Origin: a virus
Length of the DNA: 13,012 nt
Strand: one strand, 5' to 3'
UHGV virus genome: UHGV-0116252
The notes beneath the pieces were generated by a model that made no database searches, was not told the origin of the DNA, and was given only the letters and a program-made list of their open reading frames with translations. Shown one piece after another: positions 50 through 12,962 of this stretch (position 1 is the first letter of the stretch; each line of letters starts with the position of its first letter). A program made the position numbers and the translations under genes.

Positions 50-802
50 CTATCTTGTCACTTTTCTCAATTGCGATTCAGCATACGCTTCTTCCTGCCA
101 GCACTTTGTAACCAGTTTATTAATAACGTCTGCATATCCTTTGTACCACTGATAATCCGTCAGGTCCGGTACCAGTTTCTGGACATGATGCCGCGCCAGT
201 GTGGTTGGTAAACGGCTAAACCGGTTTCCATTGCAACGCCCACAAATCTTATAAACAGGCGTGCCATGAAGCCGGGTCCTTTTTTCATCCAGGACAATAC
301 CTTTACCCTTACACCCTCTGCACGCTGTGCTGACTTCTCCCTTACCATGGCAATGCTGACATAGTTCCTTCACCCACTCTTCCTTGATAACAGATTCCCC
401 GCTTCTGGAGTGTTTCACCACTTCGCGCAATACATTATGAAATCCAGTACCAGCACAATGCTCACAGCGAGCCTTACTTGCCGCAGACCTGGAATAATCA
501 GCAAAGGCAAAATTCACAAGGTAAGGAATGATCTGTAGCCGGGTTTCTTCACTCAATTTATTCAATGTCGGGTTATCCAGTGCCATCGCGTAATTGAGCA
601 GACCTTCAATCGCAAACTGAGGATCCTGAACACCAACTTTTGCCAGGAATAAGGCAAACCCAAGCGGTGCTTTCGACTGCACCATCCCCTGCGCAGCCAT
701 CACATCCGTAATCGTTAAACCACCTGAGCCTGTCGCCGGTGCGTCATCGCTCAATTTTGGAGATTTTGGGGAGTAATATTTTGGTAAGGCTTCAAGGTTC
801 AT
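50..802 (-). CDS. Lambdoid late-gene antitermination protein Q
   Basis: Minus-strand ORF whose product carries clustered CxxC motifs (CEHCAGTG, CQHCHGKG, CRGCKGKG, CGRCNG) as in Q-family antiterminators, and it is the last gene of the early operon. Start placed at ATG 802 (MNLEALPK, GGAG 7 nt upstream); the track's GTG at 844 would overlap the upstream gene by 29 nt. Confidence 0.7.
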   Translation of the reverse strand: MNLEALPKYYSPKSPKLSDDAPATGSGGLTITDVMAAQGMVQSKAPLGFALFLAKVGVQDPQFAIEGLLNYAMALDNPTLNKLSEETRLQIIPYLVNFAFADYSRSAASKARCEHCAGTGFHNVLREVVKHSRSGESVIKEEWVKELCQHCHGKGEVSTACRGCKGKGIVLDEKRTRLHGTPVYKICGRCNGNRFSRLPTTLARHHVQKLVPDLTDYQWYKGYADVINKLVTKCWQEEAYAESQLRKVTR

Positions 803-815
803 GCTCGTTCTCCAC

Positions 816-1811
816 TTACGCCAGTACGCCAATTGCCAGCGCACGATCGATAAAACGAAATATCAGCTCCAGCTGGGAGCCATACTTCTCTTCAAATGCC
901 ACGGTATCCGCATGCAGCTCGTCGTGATGCTTTCTGCACAAAGGCAACACAAAGAGGTCATGCGCTTTTGTACCCATTCCACCCTGACCGTGGCCTATCA
1001 GGTGGTGGGGATCATCAGCAGGCTTTCCACAACATGCACACGGCTGTGTCTTAACCCAGCGCGTGTACTTTTCATTAACCCAGCGGCGACGTTTTGGGCG
1101 TAACATAAAAGACTCCGGCGACTCCGGATCCACTTTCAGCGCCAGCACCTTTTTTGCCTTATCCTGGATGATGCTGGTGGCAGGAACCGAAGGCACAAGG
1201 TCACTTTCCCGGGTGACAGACGGCACAACAGGCTTCGGTAATCTCAGTGCCTTACGGGCTGCACTTTCCGGTAAGGCATCCGCCAGGTCATTACGAATCA
1301 GCCACCAGCACAGTTCCGGCATTGTCACAACGTGACTGTCATCAAAACCGAGATCCCGACGCACAACAGACAACACCCAGCGGGCACAGTTATCCGTTGC
1401 CATTGATTCCAGCCGTTCCGTGAACTGATCGCGCAGCTGGTTATCGCAGTGCCAGCACAGACGGATTGCGCCCGGAGCGTGTCGCATTGTGGTCATGTTC
1501 TCGCTGTGCCAGTCGGAATGAGGCCACTGGCAGCCTTTTTCACGAAGTAACCAGCTTTCAAGACATTCCACGCCACCAGCACGACGGATCACTGCCTCAT
1601 TGCGGAACACGGCCCGAACGGCAGGATCATCCGCCAGCGGTTGTGATGCCGCCGGAACGGCACCACTGGCGAAAGATGAATAACGTTCCGGCTCAGGCTC
1701 CAGCAGGACACGCCCCTGCATAAACAGGGGCATCAGCTCTGAACCTGGTCTGAACAATACGATCCCCATACGCGGGGCAATTTCAGGGGTCAGTAGTGCT
1801 CTCACGGTCAC
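816..1811 (-). CDS. DUF968-like phage protein with C-terminal HNH-like Cys/His motif
   Basis: 331-codon ORF, GTG start at 1811 immediately after the KilA-N stop. C-terminus CACCGKP...HHLIGHGQGG...LCRKHHDELH resembles an HNH/zinc-binding motif. Lies between the nin-type genes and Q, as DUF968 genes do in lambdoid prophages. Family assignment is from memory. Confidence 0.55.
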   Translation of the reverse strand: MTVRALLTPEIAPRMGIVLFRPGSELMPLFMQGRVLLEPEPERYSSFASGAVPAASQPLADDPAVRAVFRNEAVIRRAGGVECLESWLLREKGCQWPHSDWHSENMTTMRHAPGAIRLCWHCDNQLRDQFTERLESMATDNCARWVLSVVRRDLGFDDSHVVTMPELCWWLIRNDLADALPESAARKALRLPKPVVPSVTRESDLVPSVPATSIIQDKAKKVLALKVDPESPESFMLRPKRRRWVNEKYTRWVKTQPCACCGKPADDPHHLIGHGQGGMGTKAHDLFVLPLCRKHHDELHADTVAFEEKYGSQLELIFRFIDRALAIGVLA

Positions 1812-1812
1812 C

Positions 1813-2622
1813 TCAATGAACGGTATCGAGCAGCTTTAACAGCTCAGGGAATCGGGATTCGAAGAAATGCGGCTGCGTCTCGCGCGGATTTGCGGGACTG
1901 GTGATGTTCTTGCCGAACATGCAGCCTTTCGCTGTCAGCGACCAGAATTTTTTGATGTTGTTAATCGCGGTACGGCTGTATCGTTCGCGTTGTTCAACGA
2001 TCCCCAGCTTCACCATCTGGTGATATGCCTGATTAGCCGTCAGGCGGATACCATACTGCTTCAGCAGTGCACTCAGCGACAGCGTGGGGCGACTTGAGCC
2101 ATCAGGCGCGTCAGCAGGAGCATCAATGGCATAGCGCGGTGCCAGATTCGGTAAGCCAACAGCCTCCTGAAGCTTCTGACAGGCTCCAAGCACTGATGAG
2201 TTAGACAGATTTAATTCCCGGCGCATAAAGTCCAGCAGAATCACTCCAGCCTGCATCTTGTCAGCAGCCTGTCCGGATAATTTTTCCGGTGCGCTGGTTA
2301 CCATGTCGAAAGTACGGATCACCTTCAGATGGAATGACGGGCTGATCCACATTGCATAGGCATACACCAGTTCCTTGCAGACATAAGTTCCCCGTTCATT
2401 TCCCCCATGAATCACACTCACCGGGTCAACACCCAAATTCTGGGTGTTGGTTAATTCATGAACAAGTTCAACAGTTTGTTGGCTGGAAAGAAACTTTCCT
2501 GGCTCCTTGGTTCTGGCATTTGCACCAGATGCTACTGCTGCGCGATGCAGATCGTTCAGGCTGTAACGCCCATAAGCATCACGACGAACTTCAATACCAT
2601 CAATGACCATCAGATTATTCAT
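1813..2622 (-). CDS. KilA-N domain protein
   Basis: 269-codon ORF with ATG at 2622 and GAGGAG 9 nt upstream. N-terminus (IDGIEVRRDAYGRYSLNDLHRAA) matches the KilA-N DNA-binding domain pattern; C-terminal half not recognised. Confidence 0.6.
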   Translation of the reverse strand: MNNLMVIDGIEVRRDAYGRYSLNDLHRAAVASGANARTKEPGKFLSSQQTVELVHELTNTQNLGVDPVSVIHGGNERGTYVCKELVYAYAMWISPSFHLKVIRTFDMVTSAPEKLSGQAADKMQAGVILLDFMRRELNLSNSSVLGACQKLQEAVGLPNLAPRYAIDAPADAPDGSSRPTLSLSALLKQYGIRLTANQAYHQMVKLGIVEQRERYSRTAINNIKKFWSLTAKGCMFGKNITSPANPRETQPHFFESRFPELLKLLDTVH

Positions 2623-2641
2623 ACTTCGTTTCTCCTCTTAA

Positions 2642-3031
2642 TCAGGCGGCTGCACCCGCCGTTTTCTCGTACTTACTGATAGTGATCTCGACCTTCCCTT
2701 CCGGGATAACCGGTCCCCACTCCACCAGCATTCTTTTCACCTGACTGTCGTCTTCCCACACCCCCGCGTGGGTCAGGGCGTCAAACAGCGCCTTGTTATA
2801 GTTGTCCAGATCGCGGATCCGGTTATCCGGAGGAAACAACACGATCTCCACTGAAGCAGGTGCCGACGTTGGTTTCGGCAGACGACGTAACTGCTCAACT
2901 ATTGCTGCGCACGCCGCACTCTGGAATTTTCGCCCCGCCGCGCTTATCAGGCTCTTACCAGCAAACGCCCCTTTGTTGGGGTGTCGCCAGTACGTGTTCA
3001 CGCTGGGCGGGAAAGGCAGAATCAGCTTCAT
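2642..3031 (-). CDS. rusA: Holliday junction resolvase RusA
   Basis: 129 aa; LPFPPSVNTYWRH and IRDLDNYNKALFDALTHAGVWEDDSQV align with E. coli RusA ([40 protein letters not shown]). ATGA start/stop overlap with the upstream gene. Confidence 0.85.
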   Translation of the reverse strand: MKLILPFPPSVNTYWRHPNKGAFAGKSLISAAGRKFQSAACAAIVEQLRRLPKPTSAPASVEIVLFPPDNRIRDLDNYNKALFDALTHAGVWEDDSQVKRMLVEWGPVIPEGKVEITISKYEKTAGAAA

Positions 3032-3354
3032 ACTTTCAGACCCCTCTCATGTAACCAGTGGGCTGCACGCAGCCTGGCGTTTTCCTCACCGGCAAGCAGT
3101 GAGCGGATAATCCCGACCGCCTCGCTGTCGTCGTCCTTCACCGCGGTATGAAGCGTTATCCCCCGGGCCACGCCACGCTTTATCGTGATGACGCCTTTTT
3201 TCTCCAGTGCGCGAAGATGTTCCACCGCTGCATTCACTGAACGGTATCCCAGCATGGTTGCCACCTCCTGATTGGTTGGCGGGAAGCCACGTTCTTTCTG
3301 GTAAGAAATCAGCATATCCAGCACCTGCTGCTGGCATTGAGTTAACGTCGTCAT
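3028..3354 (-). CDS. LexA N-terminal DNA-binding domain homolog lacking the S24 peptidase domain
   Basis: 108 aa; residues 6-70 (QQQVLDMLISYQKERGFPPTNQEVATMLGYRSVNAAVEHLRALEKKGVITI) closely parallel the LexA winged-helix domain (RQQEVFDLIRDH...[36 protein letters not shown]). No Ser/Lys autocleavage module follows. ATGA overlap with the Dam gene. Confidence 0.65.
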   Translation of the reverse strand: MTTLTQCQQQVLDMLISYQKERGFPPTNQEVATMLGYRSVNAAVEHLRALEKKGVITIKRGVARGITLHTAVKDDDSEAVGIIRSLLAGEENARLRAAHWLHERGLKV

Positions 3355-4004
3355 GCCGCCATCTCCCTGACCAGTTTTTCCGCCTGCTGACGAACCTGCT
3401 CCAGAAACGCCTCACCACATGCCTCAAGTTCATCGCGCCCGATGTAGCTGATTGCCGGTCCCTTCCAGGTCTTGTCGAAAACAGCAATAGCACCAGCGAA
3501 GAAAGCGCCTGTCAGCACCTGCTTCTCGTCCTTCGGGATAAACCAGGCAGGCAGTTCAAAACCAATACGCCCGCGAATAAAAGCAATATGATCTGCATCT
3601 TCCGGCCACCACACTTCGCTGGTGGCAGCTTTGATCAGGAAAACATAGCGCCCGCCCTTATCACGCATGGCACTGGCATGCTTCATGATGTAACGCATGC
3701 CGGTGATGTATTGCCCTTCATGCTGACTGGCGCGGCTGTACGGGGGATTACCAAAGGCAGCACCTTTAAGCTCCGCAAGACGTTCAGACCAGTCATGCGC
3801 CAGCGCGTTGTCTTCCGCAGTGTAATAAGCGGCACATTTGGCGTTATCACCATCAGTGAACAGATCCAGAACAAACGGGCCAAACAGGGTGTTAATTCCC
3901 CAGAAAATGTTGTCCGGCGTGCGCCACTGATCGCCCACTTCCTTCAGTTCATGGGCTGGTTTGTTCCGCAGTTCCACCAGCGCCTGGCAATATTTATTAC
4001 TCAT
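3351..4004 (-). CDS. Phage-type DNA N6-adenine methyltransferase (Dam family)
   Basis: NPPY catalytic motif (AFGNPPYSR) plus an upstream WRTP...DLFTDG block typical of phage Dam methyltransferases. Start set at ATG 4004 (MSNKYCQ), which overlaps the upstream stop as TAATG, rather than the track start at 4037. Confidence 0.75.
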   Translation of the reverse strand: MSNKYCQALVELRNKPAHELKEVGDQWRTPDNIFWGINTLFGPFVLDLFTDGDNAKCAAYYTAEDNALAHDWSERLAELKGAAFGNPPYSRASQHEGQYITGMRYIMKHASAMRDKGGRYVFLIKAATSEVWWPEDADHIAFIRGRIGFELPAWFIPKDEKQVLTGAFFAGAIAVFDKTWKGPAISYIGRDELEACGEAFLEQVRQQAEKLVREMAA

Positions 4005-4492
4005 TAAGCCCCCACGTAATTCCCTGACAGATACCACTCTTCACCCGATGCAGCGCGCTTGCTGCTTTTCCGTAAGCACCGCTCACGACGCGCCAGAAAA
4101 TTGTTTCGTTCTGGCTGGGAGTGGCTTTCACGGAATGCCGCCATCCACACCGTTGCAGCACGACGGTATAGGCCCCTGGACTCCAGTTCTTCAGCCTGGC
4201 GGGTCAGGCACAAAATCACCCGTGGATCGTTAGTGCCGACATAGAAATTGCGCACAGGTCTGGTTTCACGAACTGGTTGTGGTTCCGGCTCCTGCGCTCT
4301 CTCAGTCAGGCGCGGGAAATGTCTGCGTGTATCCCCTTCACAACGGTGAGCCACACGCCCACTCTGACGTAACTTGCTTGCTGACTGCAGAACGCGCTGC
4401 CGTGAGTAACCTGCAAAAGCATCCGCAATGTCTCCGGAAGTACACCCCGGATGGGCTTCAATGAATTTCTGAACTTCATTCAAAAGACTCAT
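4004..4492 (-). CDS. PerC-like transcriptional regulator (tentative)
   Basis: C-terminal segment AEELESRGLYRRAATVWMAAF...ERNNFLARRERCL matches the PerC-family signature as I recall it (LESKGLWRRAA..W). Start placed at ATG 4492 (GGGGG about 5 nt upstream); the track starts at GTG 4498. Confidence 0.45.
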   Translation of the reverse strand: MSLLNEVQKFIEAHPGCTSGDIADAFAGYSRQRVLQSASKLRQSGRVAHRCEGDTRRHFPRLTERAQEPEPQPVRETRPVRNFYVGTNDPRVILCLTRQAEELESRGLYRRAATVWMAAFRESHSQPERNNFLARRERCLRKSSKRAASGEEWYLSGNYVGA

Positions 4493-4494
4493 GA

Positions 4495-5436
4495 TCACCC
4501 CCTGAATCCTGCCGGGATCTGGCTGTAGTCCACGTTGTCGTAACTGGATTTGAAATACGGGTCTTCGCGTTTTTCTGTGTATGTGCTGATGGACGGCGAT
4601 AAGCGCAGGGAAAGCTCATCCCATTTTTCCCGCAGCTTCGACGGGCTGAGCACGTTACGGCACCAGAACGGATCGCGGCTGACGCGGCTGTACATCTCGC
4701 AGATTTGTTTGTGAGTACGACCATCCTGCACACACATCAGGCGAATTTCGTTTGCCCAGGCTGTCCAGTTCGGTTCTTTGGGACGAACCACCTCGCCGTC
4801 ACATTCGGCGGCCTGCTCGTACAGGGCGATGATTTTTTTCCAGAGCCACTGTGCGCAGGTCAAATCATCCTGCGTCCCCCACTGGCGCTTTTTAGGGCTG
4901 AATACAACCGCATCAGGATGGCGAGTTAAAAAATACTGTTCAGCCGTCTGCGTGTCCGGTTGCGAAGCATCCGGACGAGAAGGTTTTTTATCTGACGGAT
5001 CATGTTTTGATTTTACTGACGGATCCCCGCCAGATTCTGACGGGTGAAAACCCGCTTTTTTGCCAGATTTCGACGCATCAAATTTTGACGGGTCAGATTT
5101 TGATGCGTCAGATTTTGACGGGTCAGAATCTGACAGTTGAGAAAATGCCGCTGCCTGAAGCTTCGCAACGTTAAGCTGATAAACATTCGACGCATTGCGG
5201 TTACCCTGGCGACGCGCCTTACGCGTTAACCAGCCTTCTGCTTCCAGCCGTGCGATAGCCGTTCTGACGGTACTCATCCCCGCGCCAATCTGGCGGGCAA
5301 TGGTTTCAATTGATGGCCAGCACACACCTTCGTCATTACTGAAATCAGCCAGGCGGGCCATAATTGCCACGCTGGATAATTTCATGCCTGACGCAGCGCA
5401 ACCATCCCATACATAGCCGGTTAATTTAGTGCTCAT
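4495..5436 (-). CDS. Replication initiator: N-terminal HTH, repeat-encoded linker, DnaT-like C-terminus
   Basis: 313 aa; N-terminal HTH-like segment (SIETIARQIGAGMSTVRTAIARLEAEGW); central low-complexity linker (DPSKSDASKSDPSKFDASKS) encoded by tandem 15-bp DNA repeats; C-terminal end SQIPAGFRG resembles the E. coli DnaT C-terminus (recalled as SQIPPGFRG). ATG 5436 with GAGG 6 nt upstream. Confidence 0.7.
   Translation of the reverse strand: MSTKLTGYVWDGCAASGMKLSSVAIMARLADFSNDEGVCWPSIETIARQIGAGMSTVRTAIARLEAEGWLTRKARRQGNRNASNVYQLNVAKLQAAAFSQLSDSDPSKSDASKSDPSKFDASKSGKKAGFHPSESGGDPSVKSKHDPSDKKPSRPDASQPDTQTAEQYFLTRHPDAVVFSPKKRQWGTQDDLTCAQWLWKKIIALYEQAAECDGEVVRPKEPNWTAWANEIRLMCVQDGRTHKQICEMYSRVSRDPFWCRNVLSPSKLREKWDELSLRLSPSISTYTEKREDPYFKSSYDNVDYSQIPAGFRG
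4990..5138. repeat. Iteron-like direct repeats inside the replication gene (candidate origin)
   Basis: Five tandem 15-bp units at 5064, 5079, 5094, 5109 and 5124 (cagatttcgacgcat, caaattttgacgggt, cagattttgatgcgt, cagattttgacgggt, cagaatctgacagtt), plus degenerate copies at 5031-5045, 5011-5025 and 4990-5003. Lambda ori also lies inside the initiator gene. Confidence 0.6.
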
Positions 5437-5445
5437 GACCGACCT

Positions 5446-5784
5446 CTATTTCCCTGAATTTACGACGAAACTGTTCGAGCGGGCTGAAGCACTCATGCTC
5501 ATAGCCTTCGCGGAGGTAGATAACTCGTTGTGTTTCCGGCTCCCAACGAATGACTCTGACGGGCACTCCGTAGTGATCTTTGAACCAGCGGTTAACTTGT
5601 CGCAAAGGACTGTCTCCTTCTGCCGGTTGAAATCACCCACAGCCCACTCAGCAAAGCTGTGGGTTACAATTTCCCTGTCACCTGGTACATTAACTGCATA
5701 GCAATACTCCACCTTCGCTTTTCCACCCGGTACAGGAAGCGCAATCAGTTGCGAGCGACGGTAGTGTGTTGTTAAACTGTTCAT
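5446..5784 (-). CDS. Hypothetical protein, possibly frameshifted
   Basis: ATG 5784 overlaps the upstream stop (ATGA). The first ~55 codons look protein-like; the C-terminal half is Ser-rich and low complexity, while the -1 frame over 5426..5605 gives a more protein-like sequence ([58 protein letters not shown]). Confidence 0.35.
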
Positions 5785-6344
5785 GCGTTAGTTTCTCCAC
5801 AGTCACGACACGCCACGGCGCCCGGAGCTGCACACTCGCGGGCGTCATTACTTTCTGAAATGCAAAAGATTTTGTAGACCAGTGCTGCATGCTCCTGCAG
5901 CTTCGAAATTGAGAGATACAGCTCGTCGTTAATTGCTGTCTTCTCATGCGGTTCCACCACACCGTCTTCGATTGCCGAACGAATCTGTCTGGAATAACTG
6001 CCAATCTGTTCAATGACTTCCAGCAGGCGCTGGTTAATATCGGCGTTGTCCACATCCTCGACGTCAGGAAGAGACACAAAGACGCCATTTGCAGACTGCG
6101 CCACAGCATCAGCAATGAAGTGAGTGCCACCAGCACGTTGTAAAATCATTGCCCATCCCAGCGGGAAAATCTGATCGCCATCGGCACGAAGGCGGTTAAA
6201 TAATGCGTTTTCTGTTACATCCAGCCAGTCAGCTGCTTCAGCGTAACCACCCGGCAACGCCGCGATAGTTTTTCTGACAGCTTTCACGTACCACTCAGGC
6301 TGTTTTTCTACTTTCCAGTGATGCTTACCCACGGTTAGCCTCAT
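5781..6344 (-). CDS. CII-like / YdaT-family early regulator (tentative)
   Basis: 187-aa ORF directly downstream of the YdaS-like cro gene; the segment [25 protein letters not shown] resembles the HTH region of phage CII-like (CP76/YdaT) proteins as I recall them. Position matches cII in lambdoid maps. Confidence 0.45.
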
Positions 6345-6375
6345 CGTTCTGTGGTTAAAAATTGAAGGTGTTCTG

Positions 6376-6576
6376 TTAATCTTTCGGATAGATATCCGGT
6401 CTTAAGTCAGATTTCGTAATTGCACCTGACGTGCATTGCTCAAGTTTTTTAGCCAGCACAAAACTGGCTTTTTTATAACCATTGAAAACCAGCCGTAAGT
6501 AGCCTGGTGTTGAGCCAACTTTTCCGGCCAACTCACCCTGCTGTTCTTTGGTTAAAGAGTCCCAATACGCTTTCAT
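6376..6576 (-). CDS. Cro-like repressor (YdaS/DUF1019-type HTH)
   Basis: 66-aa product MKAYWDSLTKEQQGELAGKVGSTPGYLRLVFNGYKKA...ITKSDLRPDIYPKD; the C-terminal LRPDI motif resembles YdaS-type Cro. ATG 6576 with GGAGGT 9 nt upstream. Divergent from the CI gene. The track ORF 6376..6879 is an artefactual upstream extension. Confidence 0.7.
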   Translation of the reverse strand: MKAYWDSLTKEQQGELAGKVGSTPGYLRLVFNGYKKASFVLAKKLEQCTSGAITKSDLRPDIYPKD

Positions 6577-6666
6577 ACAATATGTACCTCCGGTATACAT
6601 ATTACATGATTGAGATGAACCTTCAAGATACTTGTACCTTAACGGTACAAGGGTTTTAATTTCGTT
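6577..6666. promoter_or_regulatory. Divergent immunity-region promoters and operators (pR/pRM-like)
   Basis: Perfect palindrome CTTGTACC-ttaac-GGTACAAG at 6631..6651; imperfect palindrome ATATGTA-N9-TACATAT at 6580..6602. Candidate pR on the minus strand: -35 TTGAAG (6626..6621), 16-bp spacer, -10 TAATAT (6604..6599). Candidate pRM on the plus strand: -35 TTGTAC (6632..6637), -10 TTTAAT (6655..6660), with no SD before the CI ATG at 6667. Confidence 0.6.
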
Positions 6667-7341
6667 ATGAAAACAATCCATGACATCCGGCGGTCTAACG
6701 CCAGAAAACTGAGAGATGGTGTTGGCGGGAATTCTTCCTTTGCCACCATGATTGATCGCGAGCCAACCCAGACCAGCAGGTTTATGGGAGATGGTGCAAC
6801 TAAAAATATCGGTGACAGCATGGCACGGCACATCGAAAAATGTTTCGACCTGCCTGTCGGATGGCTTGATCAAGAACACCAGACAACGAACATCACAAAA
6901 AAACCTGACGTTTCAATCACTAACAAACAAATAACGTTAGTCCCTGTCATATCATGGGTACAGGCCGGAGCATGGAAAGAAGTTGGCTATTCTGAGGTTG
7001 ATTTGAGCACAGCAGAAACTTATCCCTGCCCTGTACCCTGTGGCGAAATGACTTATATCTTGCGGGTGATTGGTGATTCAATGATTGATGAGTACCGCCC
7101 GGGAGACATGATTTTTGTTGATCCTGAAGTCCCTGCCTGCCACGGTGACGACGTTATTGCATTGATGCACGATACAGGCGAAACCACCTTCAAGCGGTTG
7201 ATAGAAGATGGAACACAGCGTTATCTCAAAGCATTAAACCCAAACTGGCCTGAGCCTTACATTAAGATTAACGGTAATTGCTCTATAATTGGTACAGTGA
7301 TTTTCTCAGGAAAACCAAGAAGATACATAATAAAGGCCTAA
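6667..7341 (+). CDS. CI-type prophage repressor (HTH plus S24 LexA-like peptidase domain)
   Basis: 224 aa; N-terminal HTH region ending in VGWL, linker, then C-terminal S24 autocleavage domain with Ser motif VIGDSM and Lys motif TFKRL. Divergent from cro. Confidence 0.85.
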   Translation: MKTIHDIRRSNARKLRDGVGGNSSFATMIDREPTQTSRFMGDGATKNIGDSMARHIEKCFDLPVGWLDQEHQTTNITKKPDVSITNKQITLVPVISWVQAGAWKEVGYSEVDLSTAETYPCPVPCGEMTYILRVIGDSMIDEYRPGDMIFVDPEVPACHGDDVIALMHDTGETTFKRLIEDGTQRYLKALNPNWPEPYIKINGNCSIIGTVIFSGKPRRYIIKA

Positions 7342-7352
7342 TCAATATTTAT

Positions 7353-7376
7353 AACCTGCTTCGGCAGGTTTTTTTA
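7353..7376 (+). terminator. Rho-independent terminator after the repressor gene
   Basis: Stem aacctgc (7353..7359), loop ttcg, stem gcaggtt (7364..7370), followed by a run of T to 7375. Begins 12 nt after the CI stop. Confidence 0.65.
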
Positions 7377-7379
7377 TAC

Positions 7380-7412
7380 TTGACAATGTACCTTTGGGAT
7401 ACATAATGTATC
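7380..7412 (+). promoter_or_regulatory. pL-like sigma70 promoter with overlapping operator palindrome
   Basis: -35 TTGACA (7380..7385), 16-bp spacer, -10 CATAAT (7402..7407). Perfect palindrome GATACAT-a-ATGTATC (7398..7412) overlaps the -10, and an ATGTACC half-site (7386..7392) matches the OR half-sites. Confidence 0.55.
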
Positions 7413-7797
7413 TAAAAGAAACACAGCACAGGCAAGATTAAACAAAATTTGGTTGTAACACGGCGTATGGCACATGCGTCGTTAGCGGTCTGGGGACGTT
7501 AAAGGGGACAATCCACTCCTTGCTCGGGCAAACAAACCAGGTAGCCGGAATGTGCAAGCCACAGCCAGGTATGAGCGATTGATTCACCATCAAGGCGATA
7601 CGGTGTGACCACCAGGGAAGAGTCCTGGCTACAACACGAGAGCGCACTTCATCGACTCAACTTTGAGCTTTGTCGTTAAATTTTGAAATGGCGGAGTGCG
7701 CTCCCGGTTGTGGTGAACAGGTGTTTAACGGGAACTCCCTGCCCGTTACCCGGTTCGATTCCGGGCGCCCATCATCAATTTGCTGTGTTTAGTCTTT

Positions 7798-7826
7798 GCC
7801 CAGTCCGCACGATGGGCCATTTTTTC
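7798..7826 (+). terminator. Candidate weak intrinsic terminator within the ORF-poor region
   Basis: GCCCA (7798..7802) pairs with TGGGC (7813..7817) around a 10-nt loop, followed by cattttttc with six T at 7820..7825. Short stem, so weak. Confidence 0.3.
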
Positions 7827-7918
7827 ACACAGCCAGGTTTTATCGCTGTGCCTGAGTCCCCAACAGGAGAGGCCAAACCCGCAGCGTGACACCAGGGAAA
7901 GACCGGAGGAAGTACCAC

Positions 7919-7986
7919 GCCTGACCAGCGTTGACCATGAGCCTGACCAGCTCAAAACAGGAAAGACCAGCCCGGGCCTGACCAGC
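7919..7986 (+). repeat. Three exact copies of the 11-mer GCCTGACCAGC in non-coding DNA
   Basis: Exact copies at 7919..7929, 7941..7951 and 7976..7986, interspersed with related GAAAGACCAG (7961..7970) and TTGACCATGAG (7931..7941). Confidence 0.8.
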
Positions 7987-8126
7987 CCTGTACGGTCGTA
8001 ATGGAAACATAACGACGCCGGAAACGTAACCGGCACCCTTTAGATGGCAAAAGACCCGCACAAGGCGGGCCAGTTACCCCGAACGGCGACCAAACCATTC
8101 GGATTTATCACAAGTGACCAAACTTG

Positions 8127-8142
8127 TGATGAGGAAAGACCA
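8127..8142 (+). repeat. Copy 1 of conserved 16-nt motif TGATGAGGAAAGACCA, followed by ACG not ATG
   Basis: Same motif as at 8527 and 11699, including the GAGGA Shine-Dalgarno core; preceded by the hairpin TCACAAGT-gaccaa-ACTTGTGA (8108..8129). The position corresponding to the start codon reads ACG (8143..8145). Confidence 0.7.
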
Positions 8143-8191
8143 ACGACAGAGCCGCTGATCGGTTCTGAGTATACCCCACTAAGGAGTCGCT

Positions 8192-8512
8192 ATGGAAGCG
8201 CGCACAATCCCAGTAACACTCTTTATTCATTATGCAACTTCAACTTTCAGCCATGAAAAGCTGTTTATTGCGACGGTTGATATGTCAAAAAATTTTCCAG
8301 ACAGGTACATCCTTCTGGAAAGCCGCGAAATTGAAATTACCGTCAACCAGCCCCAGCCAATCGACATCATCGGTTTACAGGTTGAGCAGCTGCGTGAGCA
8401 AAAACAGAAAACAGCCGCCGACGCCCAACAGCGTATTGCTGCTATCGATGACAAAATCCAGCAGTTACTTTGCATCGAATACACGCCAGATACCGATGAA
8501 ATCCCCTACTAA
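8192..8512 (+). CDS. Hypothetical protein (106 aa) with predicted C-terminal coiled coil
   Basis: ATG 8192 preceded by AAGGAG (8181..8186) with 5-nt spacing; first convincing ORF downstream of the pL-like promoter. No family recognised. Confidence 0.6.
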   Translation: MEARTIPVTLFIHYATSTFSHEKLFIATVDMSKNFPDRYILLESREIEITVNQPQPIDIIGLQVEQLREQKQKTAADAQQRIAAIDDKIQQLLCIEYTPDTDEIPY

Positions 8513-8526
8513 AGACCACTGACCTG

Positions 8527-8542
8527 TAATGAGGAAAGACCA
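8527..8542 (+). repeat. Copy 2 of conserved motif TAATGAGGAAAGACCA directly before the ATG at 8543
   Basis: Identical 15/16 to copy 1; supplies the Shine-Dalgarno for the 737-aa gene. Confidence 0.7.
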
Positions 8543-10756
8543 ATGACCATTTTTAACGGCTTGTTAGAAGCGAAAAAAGGCGCGCTCAAAAACGGCGCGA
8601 TCCCGGCGCTGGCCATCGCCATCGACGCCCCTAACAAAAAAGTTGCCGAGAACATCATCATCGGCAAATTGTGGGAAGCCTACCCTGACCACGGCGACAA
8701 CTATTTCAAACCTAAAATCTGGGAAGATGCCCCGGGCCAACCGCGCCCAGGCGTTGGTGAGTTTGATGAGACGTTCGCCACAGAACACAGTTTTGATGGC
8801 GAAAAATGGGTAGTTAACACCCCCGTTGTAGATAGCGGTTCAGCAGATATCGCACAGGTTAACGACCTGATGAAACTGCCGGCTCGTGAACGATTCGCCG
8901 CCGTTCTGCTGTTCAGCCACGACGCCAACGAAGTCGACAGTGAATTGCTTGCGCAGACGCGTGAATACCTAGAGATGCTCGACAACAGTGATACTGACAG
9001 TGAGGATGAGGTTGACGCATTTAACCGCATCGTTCTTGATGCCATGGTGGCGTGTAAGCCCATCGAGTACATGCATATTGCTGGATTGAATAATCTGGTA
9101 CATGCAATTTTGGCAAGTTGCGATACCCAGGAACAAAACCCGACCAGTTGGACTATCTCCAAATTTATAAAAAAATGGGTAGAGAATCCCGGTAAACGCG
9201 ATGAAATGCTGCCGGAGGTAAAACTAGAAACAGCATCCGCACGTCCTTACCAACAGACTCACGCCACACTGGAACGTGAAATTGCCTGCGCCCTGTTACC
9301 CGTTGGCCCGGAAAAAATCACCCCCAGCGTCCTGAAAGCGGCAGACGAAATAATCAGCCAGGACCGGGAGGATTTTAAACGCTGGTCAATGGCCTTGCGC
9401 ACAACGGATCAGATCCTTGCCTATGACCGCGCATCAGTATTCGGTGTTATTCAGCGCGCCCCCGCAAAAGACACGTACCACTTCCCGCAATCCCTGCGCA
9501 GTCACATCGACAACTGGCTGCAAGCTAACGGGCAGCGTGATGCAAATGCTGTTGAAGAGAAGCCAAAGGAAGCAGCACCAAAGGATGATGTAAAAGTCAC
9601 CAACCACGGCGGCGGGCGATTCTCAATTGATGGAATGATGTCAGAAACACCCTCAAATCAGGGCGAAAAAAGCGAAGCAGCAAATGCTGGAGAACGTAGT
9701 TTGCAGCAGTTGCGTGAGCGGTTTGTCACGCCTCGCCATGTGTATGACGTACCTGAAAATAACGCCGTCTCACAGAGGGAACCTGCAGCTATTACCCCGG
9801 CAGAAGAGACTCCTCCACAAGAAAAACTTAGCGAGCAGGTAAAGGATCTGGTGCAGAACGTTGACGCGCTGGTTGAGCGGATCCATACCGAAGAGCACAA
9901 GCGGCAGAATGCAATCTCAGCTATCGAAACGGAGTTAAAGGACTCCGACGACACAGATAACCTGGCATTGTGGAAGAACGTATTCAAAACCGATGAGCGC
10001 TTCACCAGTGCTTTCTCTCAGAACGGCGGCGGCACATCCATCAACGGCACTTATATAGCGATGAAAGCGACTCGCGAATTTGGGCCGTTTGGTATTGGCT
10101 GGGGTGTAGAGGTGGTGGAAGAGCGTTTTGATAAAGGCGCACCGATAGTTCGCAAAAAACAGGTTGGTGAAAAAATAGAATGGGATCTGATTCAAGACGG
10201 TGTTGGCGGGTACCTATGTGAAATGCACCACACCATGAAAGTTAGAGTCTGGTACATATTGAATGGAGTGCGCGGTGAGTCCGAGGCTTACGGATGCACA
10301 CCTTATATCTACGACACTAAATACGGACCAACAAGCGACGGCGAAGCACCGAAGAAATCCTGGACGGATGCTGTTAAGAAAGCGCTATCCCCTCTCGGAT
10401 TCAGCGCCGATATTTTCATGGGCCTGTACGACAATCCGGAATACCGCCAGAGGAATAAAGCTGAGTTTGATATCAAGAATGCCAGCGAGAATGCGGAAGA
10501 TGCTACCCGTCTGCGTAAGGAACTGGATGAGAAGCTTATCAACGTTGCCAATACGCTGGCCTCCGCGGTAACCACTAACGAAGTAAACAAGGTATTTGGC
10601 CTCATCGCCCGCGAAGTGGATGTACACCGAAAAGCAGCAGAAGCCAAAGGCGATAAAGAATATTCATCGTATCTGGGATCGCGCCTGCGCCGTATCACCG
10701 ACATCAAAACTGAACGCCTCGCCGCCCTCACCGCTGCACAGGAGCAAACCGCATGA
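8543..10756 (+). CDS. Rad52/Sak-type single-strand annealing protein with an unrecognised ~490-aa N-terminal region
   Basis: Uninterrupted 737-codon ORF. C-terminal ~250 aa carries Rad52-fold blocks: GGGTSINGTYIAMKATREFGPFGIGWG (compare human RAD52 [27 protein letters not shown]), KVRVWYILNGVRGESEAYG, and KKSWTDAVKKALSPLGFSADIFMG (compare [21 protein letters not shown]). N-terminal 490 aa has no motif I recognise and includes an acidic stretch DNSDTDSEDEVD. Confidence 0.7.
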   Translation: MTIFNGLLEAKKGALKNGAIPALAIAIDAPNKKVAENIIIGKLWEAYPDHGDNYFKPKIWEDAPGQPRPGVGEFDETFATEHSFDGEKWVVNTPVVDSGSADIAQVNDLMKLPARERFAAVLLFSHDANEVDSELLAQTREYLEMLDNSDTDSEDEVDAFNRIVLDAMVACKPIEYMHIAGLNNLVHAILASCDTQEQNPTSWTISKFIKKWVENPGKRDEMLPEVKLETASARPYQQTHATLEREIACALLPVGPEKITPSVLKAADEIISQDREDFKRWSMALRTTDQILAYDRASVFGVIQRAPAKDTYHFPQSLRSHIDNWLQANGQRDANAVEEKPKEAAPKDDVKVTNHGGGRFSIDGMMSETPSNQGEKSEAANAGERSLQQLRERFVTPRHVYDVPENNAVSQREPAAITPAEETPPQEKLSEQVKDLVQNVDALVERIHTEEHKRQNAISAIETELKDSDDTDNLALWKNVFKTDERFTSAFSQNGGGTSINGTYIAMKATREFGPFGIGWGVEVVEERFDKGAPIVRKKQVGEKIEWDLIQDGVGGYLCEMHHTMKVRVWYILNGVRGESEAYGCTPYIYDTKYGPTSDGEAPKKSWTDAVKKALSPLGFSADIFMGLYDNPEYRQRNKAEFDIKNASENAEDATRLRKELDEKLINVANTLASAVTTNEVNKVFGLIAREVDVHRKAAEAKGDKEYSSYLGSRLRRITDIKTERLAALTAAQEQTA

Positions 10757-11322
10757 GCACCGCTATCGCTATTGCAAAAGAATATGCCAGCCTGATTGAC
10801 CTGCTGGAAACCTCCGACGAACTGACGCCAGAGATGATCGCCGACACGCTTGAAGGTATGGAAGGAGAACTGGGAGACAAACTGGACGCCATGATGGTCA
10901 TCTGCCGCAATTTACAGGGCAATGCCAATACCTGCGCTGAAGAAATGTCTCGCCTGGCTACCCGTAAGACGTCCTTTGAAGGCAAGGAAAAAGCAATCCG
11001 AAAGCATATGCTCGCCTGCCTGCAAGCTGCTGGCCTGGATAAACTGAAAACCGCAAAAAACACATTTACTGATGCACAGGGGGCTATCCGGGTAATTATC
11101 GATAGCAAAGATAAGATCCCGGATGAGTATGAAGGCGTGTCACTTGTTGATGTAGAAACGGTTATTACACCAAACAAGCGAGCCATTAAAGAAGTGATTG
11201 AATCTGCGGAGGCGGTTGCCGTCGAAATACTGGCGCGTGGAGAAACACCACCAGCCGAGTTATTAAACCCGGTACCAGGCGCACATCTGGAACGCGGCGA
11301 ACGTTCACTGAGGGTACGCTAA
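10753..11322 (+). CDS. Siphovirus Gp157-like protein (recombination-module accessory), tentative
   Basis: 189 aa, start overlaps the annealase stop (ATGA). Coiled-coil-like N-terminus, then IPDEY and PGAHLERG motifs that I recall as typical of the Gp157 family, which commonly sits next to Sak/Erf-type annealases. Confidence 0.55.
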   Translation: MSTAIAIAKEYASLIDLLETSDELTPEMIADTLEGMEGELGDKLDAMMVICRNLQGNANTCAEEMSRLATRKTSFEGKEKAIRKHMLACLQAAGLDKLKTAKNTFTDAQGAIRVIIDSKDKIPDEYEGVSLVDVETVITPNKRAIKEVIESAEAVAVEILARGETPPAELLNPVPGAHLERGERSLRVR

Positions 11323-11504
11323 TGCTTAAACTCACATTAAAGCGTGGTGACGCGGTTCACCTGGTACTTGCCGATGGAACCAACGGCATTATTGAAGCAC
11401 GGAGCCGCTGCGAACTTGGGCTACACCTGCCAGAAAACATTAAGGTCACGCGGGAGAAATCGGCATTCCCCCCACCAGAACTGATTACGCCTAATCAGAA
11501 ATAA
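11322..11504 (+). CDS. Small CsrA-like protein (tentative)
   Basis: 60 aa, TAATG coupling to the upstream gene, GAGGG about 8 nt upstream. Ungapped alignment to E. coli CsrA (61 aa) conserves M1, L2, L4, T5, G9, G33, P37, V42, R44 and E45 at identical positions (ours LGLHLPENIKVTRE; CsrA IGVNAPKEVSVHRE). Confidence 0.4.
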   Translation: MLKLTLKRGDAVHLVLADGTNGIIEARSRCELGLHLPENIKVTREKSAFPPPELITPNQK

Positions 11505-11553
11505 AAACTCACCATCGCTAGCATTGCGATTCACCAGTAACCGGAGGATCACA

Positions 11554-11778
11554 ATGCTGCGATGGCAACCGGGAGCAACTCTGCTCTCCGCATTTGATAT
11601 CAAAATTGGCCGACTGTCGGCCAGCGTCAGGAAACAGGCTGTGACCGAGTCTGATATTGCCCGTGCCTGCAAGGCGGCAGATGACGCAATAAGCTACATA
11701 ATGAGGAAAGACCATGAGAAGCGATCACGACATAATCACCAGAGAAGAAATGGTCGAGCTGACGGGAAGCCCACTTAA
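11554..11778 (+). CDS. Hypothetical small protein (weak call)
   Basis: ATG 11554 with GGAGG 6 nt upstream. The N-terminal ~50 codons look protein-like; the 3' end overlaps the xis-like gene in another frame. Confidence 0.3.
   Translation: MLRWQPGATLLSAFDIKIGRLSASVRKQAVTESDIARACKAADDAISYIMRKDHEKRSRHNHQRRNGRADGKPT
11699..11713 (+). repeat. Copy 3 of conserved motif TAATGAGGAAAGACC directly before the ATG at 11714
   Basis: Same motif as at 8127 and 8527; supplies the Shine-Dalgarno for the excisionase-like gene. Confidence 0.7.
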
Positions 11779-11977
11779 ATCAAAGCAATGTGAGGCTCTT
11801 CGCCGGGCTGGAATTTTCTTCATGGAAAGGGCTGACGGGCACCCAAAAACAACCTGGGGCCATTTCATGAACCCAATAAAATTTCGCAATTTACAGGAGG
11901 TGACGACGCGAAAAGATGATGAACCTGATTTTGGAGCAATATTTAATGGCCGGAAAGAGAAAGAACCCAGCAGATAA
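11714..11977 (+). CDS. Excisionase-like small DNA-binding protein (DUF4224-like)
   Basis: 87 aa directly upstream of and overlapping the integrase gene; the segment ITREEMVELTGSPLKSKQCEALRRAGIFF resembles DUF4224 proteins that precede phage integrases. Confidence 0.55.
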   Translation: MRSDHDIITREEMVELTGSPLKSKQCEALRRAGIFFMERADGHPKTTWGHFMNPIKFRNLQEVTTRKDDEPDFGAIFNGRKEKEPSR

Positions 11978-12962
11978 CTGGATGCCGCCTCGTGTTTACC
12001 AGGGCAAAGCGGCCTACGAATTCAGGAATAAAGATAACAAAGCGATACGCCTGTGCGCATTGGATGCGCCACGATCAGCCGTATGGCTGGCATATGAAAA
12101 AGCGGTCGGTGACGAAAAAGAAAGAAATACTTTTCAGGCGCTCGCGGAACAATTCATGACCTCCCCTGATTTTATGGATTTGGCAGTCGAAACCAGGAAA
12201 GACTACACAAAATATTCCGGAAAAGTTCTGCCTGTCTTCGGGAAGATCGACCCGGATAAAATCAAACCTGAACATATTCGGCGCTATATGGATCAACGCG
12301 GTTTATCAAGCCGAACTCAGGCAAACAGGGAAAAAAGCTTTATGTCCAGGGTATTCCGTTGGGGTTATGAACGAGGTTATGTCCAGAGGAATCCTTGTCA
12401 GGGAGTTAAGCAGTTTAAAGAGACAGCACGCGAACGTTATATTACGGATGAAGAATATCAGGCCGTTTATGAAGTATCTCCTGATGTTGTTCGCGTGGCA
12501 ATGGAGATTGCCTACTTATGCGTGGCCAGACAGAGTGATGTACTTTCATTGCAGAAAGACCAGCTGTTCGATTCCGGGATCTACATTCGTCAGGGAAAAA
12601 CCGGCGTTAAGCAAATCAAAGCCTGGTCGCCTCGTCTGCAGAAAGCGATAGCTCTGGCTCGTTCTCTGCCATTAAAACCGGGAATCAGTAGCCTGTTTGT
12701 GATTCATCAAACTACCGGAGGCAAGTACACCCGTGATGGTTTTAACTCTCGTTGGCGTGATGTCAAAGCGGCAGCACAGGAAAAATATCCTCATCTGCAA
12801 ATAGACTTCACATTTCATGATCTGAAAGCAAAAGGTATCTCTGATCTGGAAGGCAGCCTGGAAGAGAAGCAAGCAATTTCCGGGCATAAGAACCCACGAC
12901 AGACAGCAGCATATGACCGAAAAGTTAAAGTAGTGCCCGTAGTTGGTGGCCAGAGAAAATGA
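11916..12962 (+). CDS. int: Tyrosine recombinase (lambda-family phage integrase)
   Basis: C-terminal catalytic region aligns with lambda Int: ARQSDV (Arg I), FTFHDLKAK (His, with Lys where lambda has Arg311), ISGHKNPRQTAAYDRK (His and Tyr nucleophile). Start is ambiguous: ATG at 11916, 11946 or 11982. Confidence 0.9.
   Translation: MMNLILEQYLMAGKRKNPADNWMPPRVYQGKAAYEFRNKDNKAIRLCALDAPRSAVWLAYEKAVGDEKERNTFQALAEQFMTSPDFMDLAVETRKDYTKYSGKVLPVFGKIDPDKIKPEHIRRYMDQRGLSSRTQANREKSFMSRVFRWGYERGYVQRNPCQGVKQFKETARERYITDEEYQAVYEVSPDVVRVAMEIAYLCVARQSDVLSLQKDQLFDSGIYIRQGKTGVKQIKAWSPRLQKAIALARSLPLKPGISSLFVIHQTTGGKYTRDGFNSRWRDVKAAAQEKYPHLQIDFTFHDLKAKGISDLEGSLEEKQAISGHKNPRQTAAYDRKVKVVPVVGGQRK

What the first reader, a model, noticed from the sequence alone, without database searches (positions are those of the whole stretch)
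4990..5138. Iteron array embedded in the replication initiator gene (candidate prophage origin)
Five tandem 15-bp repeats plus three or more degenerate upstream copies lie inside the initiator ORF, where they encode a flexible Ser/Asp/Lys-rich linker. This is the lambda arrangement, where ori sits inside gene O. An A/T-rich stretch lies nearby (around 4830..4850 and 4925..4990).
Basis: partly seen in the sequence, partly recalled or inferred. Interest (0 to 1): 0.55.

Follow-up and report, generated by a model that had tools for sequence, protein, structure and literature searches.

The report
Replication origin inside prophage initiator gene
The repeats are almost certainly the initiator-binding sites of this E. 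coli/Shigella prophage's replication origin, laid out as in phage lambda but with a different DNA-binding domain. The same repeats were published for E. coli K-12 as binding sites of the host regulator SrsR, without being recognised as an origin.

Summary
Window 5029-5134 holds six copies of a 13-bp palindrome (GTCAGAWTCTGAC): five in tandem at a 15-bp period and one set apart. Two A/T-rich 24-bp repeats follow at 4978-5025, each starting with GATC. All of this lies in the predicted disordered linker (residues 102-162) of a 313-aa initiator gene (4495-5436, minus strand).

The DNA, not only the peptide, is under selection.
- Synonymous codons are fixed across 83 diverged relatives.
- Some relatives carry copies in another reading frame.
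- The array was found only in this initiator family (120/120 viral contigs).
- It stays with the N-terminal domain while the C-terminal domain is swapped.

A 2022 gSELEX and footprinting study found that four of these repeats form the strongest site in the K-12 genome for the LysR regulator SrsR. In K-12 the initiator's N-terminal domain is deleted, so the array looks intergenic there.

Origin function and initiator binding are inferred, not shown. I file it as a new member of a known kind, of moderate interest.

The parts
4495..5436 (-). Replication initiator gene, 313 aa (homologue of the intact form of K-12 CPS-53 yfdO)
   Evidence: ORF. PHROG 391 'replication initiation O-like', E 9e-135. 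98-99% DNA identity to the replication genes of phages SfIV and SfII.
5143..5436 (-). N-terminal winged helix-turn-helix domain (residues 1-98), the presumed iteron binder
   Evidence: Pfam HTH_36, E 4e-11, with no Phage_rep_O hit. The AlphaFold model shows helices plus a beta-hairpin wing. Foldseek hits are dimeric ArsR/MarR-type winged-helix regulators.
5122..5134 (.). Iteron 1, GTCAGAATCTGAC, a perfect 13-bp palindrome
   Evidence: It is the fourth SrsR box footprinted in K-12, where it reads TCAGAgTcTGa.
5107..5119 (.). Iteron 2, GTCAGATTTTGAC
   Evidence: Identical to a footprinted SrsR box in K-12.
5092..5104 (.). Iteron 3, GTCAGATTTTGAT
5077..5089 (.). Iteron 4, ATCAAATTTTGAC
5062..5074 (.). 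Iteron 5, GCCAGATTTCGAC, degenerate (2 mismatches in the core)
   Evidence: In register at the 15-bp period.
5042..5061 (.). 20-bp spacer with a T6/A6 run and a small hairpin
   Evidence: The hairpin is not conserved in relatives.
5029..5041 (.). Iteron 6, GCCAGATTCTGAC, the copy nearest the A/T-rich block
   Evidence: The best conserved copy among relatives, consensus CAGAATCTGG.
5002..5025 (-). A/T-rich 24-bp repeat A, GATCCGTCAGTAAAATCAAAACAT, starting with a GATC (5022-5025) and a half-iteron CCGTCAG
4978..5001 (-). A/T-rich 24-bp repeat B, GATCCGTCAGATAAAAAACCTTCT, with GATC at 4998-5001. Together with repeat A it is the candidate DNA-unwinding element.
   Evidence: GC 0.30, the lowest in the gene. 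Among relatives two GATC lie 24 bp apart in 69 of 81 neighbouring GATC pairs; 72 of 80 genes have two or three GATC in this block. The Asp codon is GAT in 141/142 cases here, against GAC in 215/246 in the iterons.
4597..4947 (-). C-terminal domain (residues 164-280), homologous to the C-terminal domains of lambda O and phi80 gp15
   Evidence: BLASTP E 1e-24 to lambda O and 4e-25 to phi80 gp15. Confident helical AlphaFold model.
4498..4524 (-). C-terminal tail SQIPAGFRG, 8/9 identical to the C-terminus of E. coli DnaT
   Evidence: A GFR-type tail is present in 53/83 relatives across all C-terminal domain classes.

Best explanation
The region is the prophage's origin of replication, built into the part of the initiator gene that codes for the linker between its two domains.

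Proposed mechanism:
1. Early rightward transcription (leftward in window coordinates) makes the initiator.
2. Dimers of its N-terminal winged-helix domain bind the six 13-bp palindromes. Five abut at a 15-bp period and one lies 33 bp further on.
3. The resulting protein-DNA complex destabilises the adjacent A/T-rich block, which consists of two 24-bp repeats that each begin with GATC and a half-site.
4. The lambda-O-like C-terminal domain then brings in the host helicase.

Shown here:
- The anatomy.
- Selection on the nucleotides themselves.
- Strict linkage in cis to the N-terminal domain.
- Equivalence of position with the annotated origins of lambda, phi80 and P22.

Inferred, not shown:
- Binding by the N-terminal domain.
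- Unwinding at 4978-5025.
- Origin activity.
- The route of helicase loading. No P-, DnaC- or DnaB-like gene is present, and the DnaT-like tail may substitute.
For: Clustering. All five sites with at most 1 mismatch lie in 5030-5133, against 0.94 matches expected by chance.

Conservation. Eighty loci from over 30 enterobacterial genera carry the motif, 2-11 copies each, at gene nucleotides ~297-450.

Codon choice. I examined 353 Ser-x-Ser sites in 83 unique genes.
- The first Ser is TCA in 89% of sites, against 11% of Ser codons in the N-terminal domain.
- The second Ser is TCT in 79%, against 8.5%.
- Lys is AAA 177 times and AAG never.
- Glu is GAA 104 times and GAG 3 times.

Synonymous identity. 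At identical amino acids, codons are identical in 82-91% of cases in the 26 codons nearest the origin, against 38-44% in the N-terminal domain. This is for gene pairs with 60-90% N-terminal domain identity.

Frame independence. Copies in another reading frame occur in L005 and L082: GTTTTCACCCGTCAGAATCTGAC is read as VFTRQNLT rather than GFHPSxS. Amino acids also change while the palindrome is kept, for example PPESG = CCAGAATCTGG.

Linkage. All 120 viral contigs with a tandem pair of the motif encode the N-terminal domain. In 115 of them the array starts 297-372 nt after the gene start.

Module behaviour. The same N-terminal domain, iterons and A/T-rich block are joined to at least three different C-terminal domains: lambda-O-like, Phg_2220_C and SfV-like.

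Covariation.
- Distant HTH_36 initiators carry different palindromic repeats at the same place.
- The bases flanking the core change symmetrically, G..C to T..A, in divergent N-terminal domain clades.

Position. Lambda's iterons lie at gene nucleotides 349-433, phi80's at 365-441 and P22's origin at 353-497. Here they lie at 303-407, with the A/T-rich block at 412-459.

No other candidate initiator. SfIV and SfII are isolated, viable phages. They carry this module at 98-99% identity, and the SfIV paper describes no other initiator.
Against: - There is no experimental evidence of origin activity or of initiator binding for this family.
- The only protein shown to bind these repeats is the host LysR regulator SrsR, in K-12.
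- A 15-bp period is not a whole number of helical turns, unlike the classical spacing of iterons.
- No helicase-loader partner is encoded and there are no DnaA boxes nearby, so the loading step has no identified route.
- Tandem repeats can be kept uniform within a gene by slippage. This does not explain their conservation between genera.
Confidence: 0.75

Rival explanations
1. The repeats are operator sites ('SrsR boxes') of the host LysR-type regulator SrsR (YgfI). On this view they control transcription of the yfdONMLK and yfdPQ genes, and that is why they are conserved.
For: PMC9181523 reports the following.
- The strongest gSELEX-chip peak in the K-12 genome lies here: intensity 1206, against 150-288 for the other nine peaks.
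- Gel shifts show several complexes.
- A 66-bp DNase I footprint covers TCAaATTTTGa, TCAGATTTTGa, TCAGATTTTGa and TCAGAgTcTGa.
- Overexpressing SrsR raises yfdO and yfdK mRNA.

The K-12 sequence is identical to the window across the array except for one base.
Against: - In intact elements the array lies inside the initiator reading frame, not in a promoter. It looks intergenic in K-12 only because the N-terminal domain was deleted.
- The array always travels with the HTH_36 domain.
- It is conserved in prophages of Proteus, Providencia, Pantoea, Rahnella, Klebsiella pneumoniae and others. The SrsR search returned no named orthologue of 60% identity or more from those genera. That absence rests on a word-based search and on the minority of hits that carry a name.
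- The footprint needed 10-40 uM SrsR.
- This reading is not exclusive: SrsR could bind on top of an origin function.
Confidence: 0.12
2. The repeats bind the initiator, but for autoregulation, copy control or titration. The site where replication actually starts lies elsewhere in the prophage.
For: In many plasmids iterons serve both initiation and control. A few relatives have extra motif copies about 440-520 nt upstream of the gene.
Against: - An A/T-rich block with conserved nucleotides directly adjoins the array.
- The layout matches three mapped lambdoid origins.
- The window has no other cluster of the motif.
Confidence: 0.08
3. The repeats are purely a low-complexity coding expansion that makes a flexible Ser/Asp/Lys linker. 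The DNA sequence itself has no function.
For: The region is predicted to be disordered. Copy number varies in 5-residue steps among close relatives.
Against: - Synonymous positions are fixed across genera.
- Copies occur in another reading frame.
- Each unit is a palindrome.
- The peptide varies while the DNA is kept.
- The array is absent from unrelated genes.
Confidence: 0.03
4. The constraint on the nucleotides comes from an overlapping gene or from a structured RNA.
For: The strand folds far better than shuffled versions (z = -6.0). Short ORFs in other frames exist in the window.
Against: - No alternative frame is consistently open in 80 relatives. The best is open in 33/80 and the others in 0-1/80.
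- There is no Rfam match.
- Strong folding follows automatically from tandem palindromes.
- Copy number varies from 2 to 11.
Confidence: 0.02

Closest known systems
ori-lambda inside gene O (also phi80 ori in gene 15 and P22 ori in gene 18)
   Same: - The iterons have dyad symmetry and central A-tracts, and lie in the linker-coding middle of the initiator gene.
- An A/T-rich region follows them in the direction of transcription.
- The N-terminal domain and iterons form one specificity module that is swapped against C-terminal domains.
- The C-terminal domain is homologous (E 1e-24 and 4e-25).

   Different: - The N-terminal domain is Pfam HTH_36, not Phage_rep_O.
- The iterons are 13-bp palindromes abutting at a 15-bp period. 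Lambda's are annotated as 18 bp at spacings of 20-24 bp.
- The A/T-rich block is itself two 24-bp repeats, each starting with GATC.
- No P, gp14 or gp12 partner gene is present.
- The C-terminus ends in a DnaT-like tail instead of the lambda-type ...TDWIYG... tail.
SrsR (YgfI) box cluster in the yfdO/yfdP 'spacer' of E. coli K-12 CPS-53 (PMC9181523)
   Same: It is the same DNA. Iterons 4, 3, 2 and 1 are the four footprinted boxes.
   Different: That study treats them as promoter elements of a host regulon and does not mention iterons, palindromes or an origin. In this window they lie inside an intact initiator gene whose N-terminal domain K-12 has lost.
Iteron origins of theta plasmids (pPS10/RepA, R6K/pi, RK2/TrfA, P1 oriR)
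   Same: - Repeated binding sites for a winged-helix initiator lie next to an A/T-rich unwinding element.
- GATC sites sit in the A/T-rich part, as in P1 oriR and oriC (from my own knowledge, not tested here).
   Different: - Plasmid iterons are typically direct repeats of 17-22 bp, spaced in helical phase and bound by monomers. Those here are palindromes at 15 bp.
- There are no DnaA boxes.
- The origin lies inside the initiator gene.

Membership tests
Lambdoid origin embedded in the initiator gene (ori-lambda type) | Several repeated sites with internal dyad symmetry in the linker-coding middle of the initiator gene | tested here: met
   Six 13-bp palindromes at 5029-5134, codons 101-136 of a 313-codon gene. 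The linker is predicted to be disordered.
Lambdoid origin embedded in the initiator gene (ori-lambda type) | An A/T-rich region directly after the iterons in the direction of initiator transcription | tested here: met
   4978-5025, GC 0.30, the lowest in the gene. Conserved in 80/83 relatives.
Lambdoid origin embedded in the initiator gene (ori-lambda type) | Iteron sequence goes with the type of the initiator's N-terminal domain | tested here: met
   120/120 linkage. Other HTH_36 classes carry other palindromes. The flanking bases covary with the N-terminal domain clade, though this rests on few independent clades.
Lambdoid origin embedded in the initiator gene (ori-lambda type) | The initiator's N-terminal domain binds the iterons, and the fragment supports initiator-dependent replication | not testable with these tools
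   Needs gel shift or footprinting and a plasmid replication assay.
Lambda O protein family | N-terminal domain is Pfam Phage_rep_O (PF04492) | tested here: not met
   There is no hit at E <= 0.01, and HTH_36 is found instead. Lambda O, phi80 gp15 and P22 gp18 all match PF04492.
Lambda O protein family | C-terminal domain homologous to the P-binding domain of lambda O | tested here: met
   BLASTP E 1e-24 to lambda O and 4e-25 to phi80 gp15.
Lambda O protein family | A partner helicase-loader or helicase gene (P, gp14, gp12) immediately downstream | tested here: not met
   The downstream genes are PerC-like, Dam, a LexA-type DNA-binding protein, RusA and KilA-N. Nothing resembling a helicase or loader lies between int and Q. 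Of relatives with the GFR tail, 52/53 lack a P- or DnaC-like neighbour.
SrsR (YgfI) operator cluster | 11-bp box TCAGATTTTGC in several copies, footprinted by SrsR | tested here: met
   The window's sites at 5078-5133 match the four K-12 boxes, with one base different.
SrsR (YgfI) operator cluster | Located in a promoter or intergenic region upstream of the regulated genes | tested here: not met
   Here the sites lie inside an intact 313-codon ORF. They look intergenic only in the truncated K-12 copy.
SrsR (YgfI) operator cluster | The regulator is present wherever the sites are conserved | tested here: inconclusive
   Named SrsR orthologues of 60% identity or more came from Escherichia, Citrobacter, Kosakonia, Yersinia, Hafnia, Sodalis and a few others. 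None came from Proteus, Providencia, Pantoea or Rahnella, which do carry the array.
Theta-plasmid iteron origins | Direct repeats of about 17-22 bp spaced in helical phase, with DnaA boxes nearby | tested here: not met
   The units are palindromes at a 15-bp period. There is no DnaA box within the gene; the single relaxed match at 7821 is at chance level.

The most novel reading that the evidence does not exclude
This could be a distinct and very common class of origin that works with an initiator alone.
- The initiator would load the host helicase without any phage loader, through a C-terminal peptide that mimics the end of the host primosomal protein DnaT.
- The origin's unwinding element would be governed by two phased GATC sites, with a phage Dam methylase gene often next door.
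- The host regulator SrsR would bind the iterons in competition with the initiator. That would give the host, or the prophage, a switch on prophage replication tied to stationary phase.
Probability: 0.2. Interest if true: 0.65.

Novelty: new member of a known kind. Interest (0 to 1): 0.42.

Why it matters
- The module is present in 1961 of 5426 complete E. coli genomes and in prophages of more than 30 enterobacterial genera. It is annotated only as 'helix-turn-helix domain-containing protein', so a very common prophage origin has gone unmarked.
- The strongest in-vitro target of the K-12 regulator SrsR would be reinterpreted as the orphaned origin of a decayed prophage. That changes how the SrsR 'box' and its regulon should be read.
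- These phages lack any helicase loader. They offer a tractable case for asking how an O-type initiator recruits DnaB without P.

Tried and rejected
- **GC skew.** It follows the direction of transcription and switches at the cI/cro divergence, so it says nothing about the origin.
- **Rfam on the whole window.** No match.
- **Promoter and terminator scan.** Counts are at chance level. The hairpin with a T-run at 5041-5054 is not conserved in relatives.
- **DnaA boxes.** None near the array.
- **GATC density.** 51 found against 50 expected, so there is no enrichment. Only the evolutionary conservation of the two sites is notable.
- **Sequence search of solved structures and Foldseek.** Only generic winged-helix regulators were found, and nothing for the C-terminal domain.
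- **Overlapping-ORF explanation.** Rejected.
- **Plasmid search for an autonomous replicon.** Most hits are prophages in large replicons.
  - OR902851.1 looks like an excised e14 circle. It is a 15.2-kb circle carrying an icd fragment, mcrA and hin; the e14 identification is from my own knowledge.
  - NZ_CP148542.1 (16 kb, cI to the lysis genes) may be a lambda-dv-like circle, but it belongs to a different subfamily and was not verified.
- **Literature searches.** I searched for an origin or iterons in SfII, SfIV or CPS-53, and for 'initiator-solo'. Nothing turned up apart from the SrsR paper.
- **DnaT papers.** They assign no specific function to DnaT's last residues.

Full report
**Context**

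The window is the early region of a lambdoid prophage of the SfII/SfIV/CPS-53 type. It shows 98-99% DNA identity to Shigella phages SfIV and SfII and to several E. coli phages. Reading leftward on the minus strand from the cI-like repressor (6667-7341, plus strand), the genes are:
- a cro/YdaS-like gene and a cII-like gene (5781-6344);
- a small ORF (5446-5784);
- the initiator (4495-5436);
- a PerC/YfdN-like gene, Dam methylase, a LexA-type DNA-binding protein, RusA, KilA-N, DUF968/HNH and Q.

The other arm carries an exonuclease, a Gp157-like gene and integrase. No helicase, primase or helicase-loader gene is present anywhere between int and Q.

**The observation**

Tandem Repeats Finder finds a 15-bp period at 5064-5127, and a 30-bp super-period. 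The repeat finder places five copies in register at 5064-5138, plus further copies towards 4990.

Read on the coding strand, the unit is a 13-bp palindrome, GTCAGAWTCTGAC.
- Perfect or near-perfect copies lie at 5122-5134, 5107-5119, 5092-5104 and 5077-5089.
- A degenerate copy lies at 5062-5074.
- After a 20-bp spacer, another good copy lies at 5029-5041.

The 11-bp core with at most one mismatch occurs only here in the 13 kb. That gives 10 strand-matches against 0.94 expected, and no shuffle out of 200 reached it.

Two 24-bp A/T-rich repeats follow at 5002-5025 and 4978-5001. Each starts with GATC plus the half-site CCGTCAG. This is the lowest-GC stretch of the gene, at 0.30, and is in the lowest 0.9% of the window.

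**The protein**

- Residues 1-98 form a winged helix-turn-helix domain: Pfam HTH_36, AlphaFold model and Foldseek hits to dimeric ArsR/MarR-type regulators.
- Residues 102-162, which are exactly the iterons plus the A/T-rich block, have pLDDT below 50.
- Residues 164-280 form a confident helical domain homologous to the C-terminal domains of lambda O (E 1e-24) and phi80 gp15 (E 4e-25).
- The N-terminal domain is not Phage_rep_O, whereas lambda O, phi80 gp15 and P22 gp18 all are.

**Is the DNA or the peptide selected?**

I collected 80 loci from more than 30 enterobacterial genera with an N-terminal domain profile, and 11 phage loci.

Nearly all carry 2-11 copies of the motif at the same place in the gene, and rarely anywhere else in the 4.3-kb loci.

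In 83 unique genes there are 353 Ser-x-Ser sites in the linker.
- The first Ser uses TCA in 89% of sites and the second uses TCT in 79%. In the N-terminal domains of the same genes these codons make up 11% and 8.5% of Ser codons.
- Lys is AAA 177 times and AAG never.

For gene pairs at 60-90% N-terminal domain identity, codons at identical amino acids are identical in only 38-44% of cases in the N-terminal domain. In the 26 codons that cover the last iteron and the A/T-rich repeats the figure is 82-91%.

Asp is GAC in 215/246 cases in front of iteron cores but GAT in 141/142 cases at the head of the A/T-rich repeats. This preserves GATC, and neighbouring GATC sites lie 24 bp apart in 69 of 81 pairs.

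In L005 and L082 the same 23-nt DNA element occurs twice, 32 nt apart, in two different reading frames: GFHPSDS and VFTRQNLT. Elsewhere the peptide changes (PPESG) while the palindrome is kept or even improved (CCAGAATCTGG).

No alternative frame is conserved as open, and there is no Rfam match. The nucleotide sequence is therefore under its own selection.

**Who binds it?**

- A scan of viral contigs for two adjacent motif copies returned 120 contigs. All encode the N-terminal domain, and 115 have the array 297-372 nt after its start codon.
- The N-terminal domain, iterons and A/T-rich block are found fused to at least three unrelated C-terminal domains: lambda-O-like, Phg_2220_C and SfV-like. 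The downstream genes also vary.
- More distant HTH_36 initiators have different palindromic repeats at the same position: GGGGCAGGAGCTGCCC, GTGCAGGAGATTCAC and TATGCCATCnGATGGCA.
- In divergent N-terminal domain clades the bases flanking the core change symmetrically from G..C to T..A. This is suggestive but rests on few independent clades.

This is the behaviour of a module made of an origin-binding domain and its own sites. It is the pattern known for lambda, phi80 and P22, whose annotated iterons or origin lie at gene nucleotides 349-433, 365-441 and 353-497. Here the figure is 303-459. Background on ori-lambda comes from PMC7466680. Relatives with a lambda-type C-terminal domain (L060, L073) even keep the lambda-like SSxNSxESSD segment directly after the A/T-rich repeats.

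**An experimental twist**

A search for yfdO led to PMC9181523.
- Genomic SELEX with the K-12 LysR-type regulator SrsR (YgfI) gave its strongest peak in the genome in the 'yfdO/yfdP spacer': 1206, against 150-288 for the others.
- A 66-bp DNase I footprint covered four 11-bp boxes. These are iterons 4, 3, 2 and 1 of this window.
- The paper does not mention iterons or an origin.

Alignment shows that K-12 CPS-53 is nearly identical to the window (a few single-base differences) from about 4900 to 5207 and then breaks off. K-12 has lost the winged-helix domain, and the annotated yfdO is only the C-terminal 122 residues. That is why the array looks intergenic there.

Named SrsR orthologues came from a patchy set of genera and not from several that carry the array. 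SrsR shows no sequence similarity to the N-terminal domain. I therefore treat SrsR binding as real but secondary. It may be a host overlay on a phage origin, or an effect of many adjacent sites seen at high protein concentration. As the primary function I give it 0.12.

**Verdict**

This is most likely the prophage's origin, with confidence 0.75. It is a new member of the kind 'origin inside the initiator gene', with a different binding domain and its own iteron geometry.

It is extremely common: 1961 of 5426 complete E. coli genomes carry it, and it is not annotated as an origin.

Still unexplained:
- how the helicase is loaded without a loader;
- the DnaT-like tail;
- the conserved GATC pair;
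- the role of SrsR.

Noticed in passing
window 4498-4524 (minus strand): The initiator ends in SQIPAGFRG, 8/9 identical to the last nine residues of E. coli DnaT, SQIPPGFRG. A GFR-type tail occurs in 53/83 relatives whatever their C-terminal domain. Of those, 52/53 have no P- or DnaC-like gene downstream, whereas 6/30 without the tail do. This may be a mimic of a host primosome peptide.
   Followed up: partly
window 50-12962 (whole int-to-Q region): No helicase, primase or helicase-loader gene is present. The 737-aa ORF at 8543-10756 is an exonuclease (PHROG 2489).
   Followed up: yes
window 4998-5001 and 5022-5025; Dam gene 3351-4037 (minus strand): Two GATC sites 24 bp apart head the A/T-rich repeats. 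They are conserved through codon choice (GAT in 141/142 cases). A Dam-family methylase gene lies within about 1.3 kb downstream in 38/87 loci. GATC is not enriched in the window overall.
   Followed up: partly
L008-L011 about 1800-1850; L177 about 10970-11010: Initiators with different iterons share a repeat after the iterons, GAACCAGTCA or GAACCGTCA (2-4 copies at 12-17 bp spacing). It resembles the window's GATCCGTCAG. It could be a common unwinding or host-factor element, or a conserved peptide (FEPVxEP).
   Followed up: partly
L218 (E. coli K-12 CPS-53) 4247-4605: K-12 keeps the iterons, the A/T-rich block and the C-terminal domain but has lost the winged-helix domain. It is an orphan origin annotated as intergenic, and it is the top SrsR gSELEX target.
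   Followed up: yes
L005 gene nt 435-487; L082 gene nt 417-470: The iteron with its flank, GTTTTCACCCGTCAGAWTCTGAC, is duplicated 32 nt apart, so the second copy is read in another frame.
   Followed up: yes
L216 (NZ_CP148542.1, 15,977 bp circular) and L215 (OR902851.1, 15,193 bp circular): Two small circular 'plasmids' carry members of the family. L216 runs from cI and cro through the initiator and a DnaC-like gene to Q and the lysis genes, and may be a lambda-dv-like circle. L215 looks like an excised e14 element with a fragmented initiator.
   Followed up: partly
proteins P0016 and P0020 (alignment A2): Natural E. coli variants of the initiator have lost most or all of the tandem iterons, and P0020 has also lost the end of the N-terminal domain. 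They are probably dead origins in decaying prophages. Close relatives differ in length by multiples of 5 residues.
   Followed up: no
L060, L073, L084 linker ends; L212 (lambda) 760-790: Relatives with a lambda-type C-terminal domain carry SSQNSDESSD directly after the A/T-rich repeats. In L060 the DNA, TCGTCGCAGAATTCTGACGAATCC, is close to lambda's TCGTCAGAGAATTCTGGCGAATCC, which lies to the right of lambda's A/T-rich region.
   Followed up: partly
window 5064-5127: The array also has a 30-bp super-period, with alternating CCG and GCR spacers (DPSKS/DASKS) and 88% matches. Thirty bp is close to three helical turns, so alternate sites face the same side of the helix.
   Followed up: no
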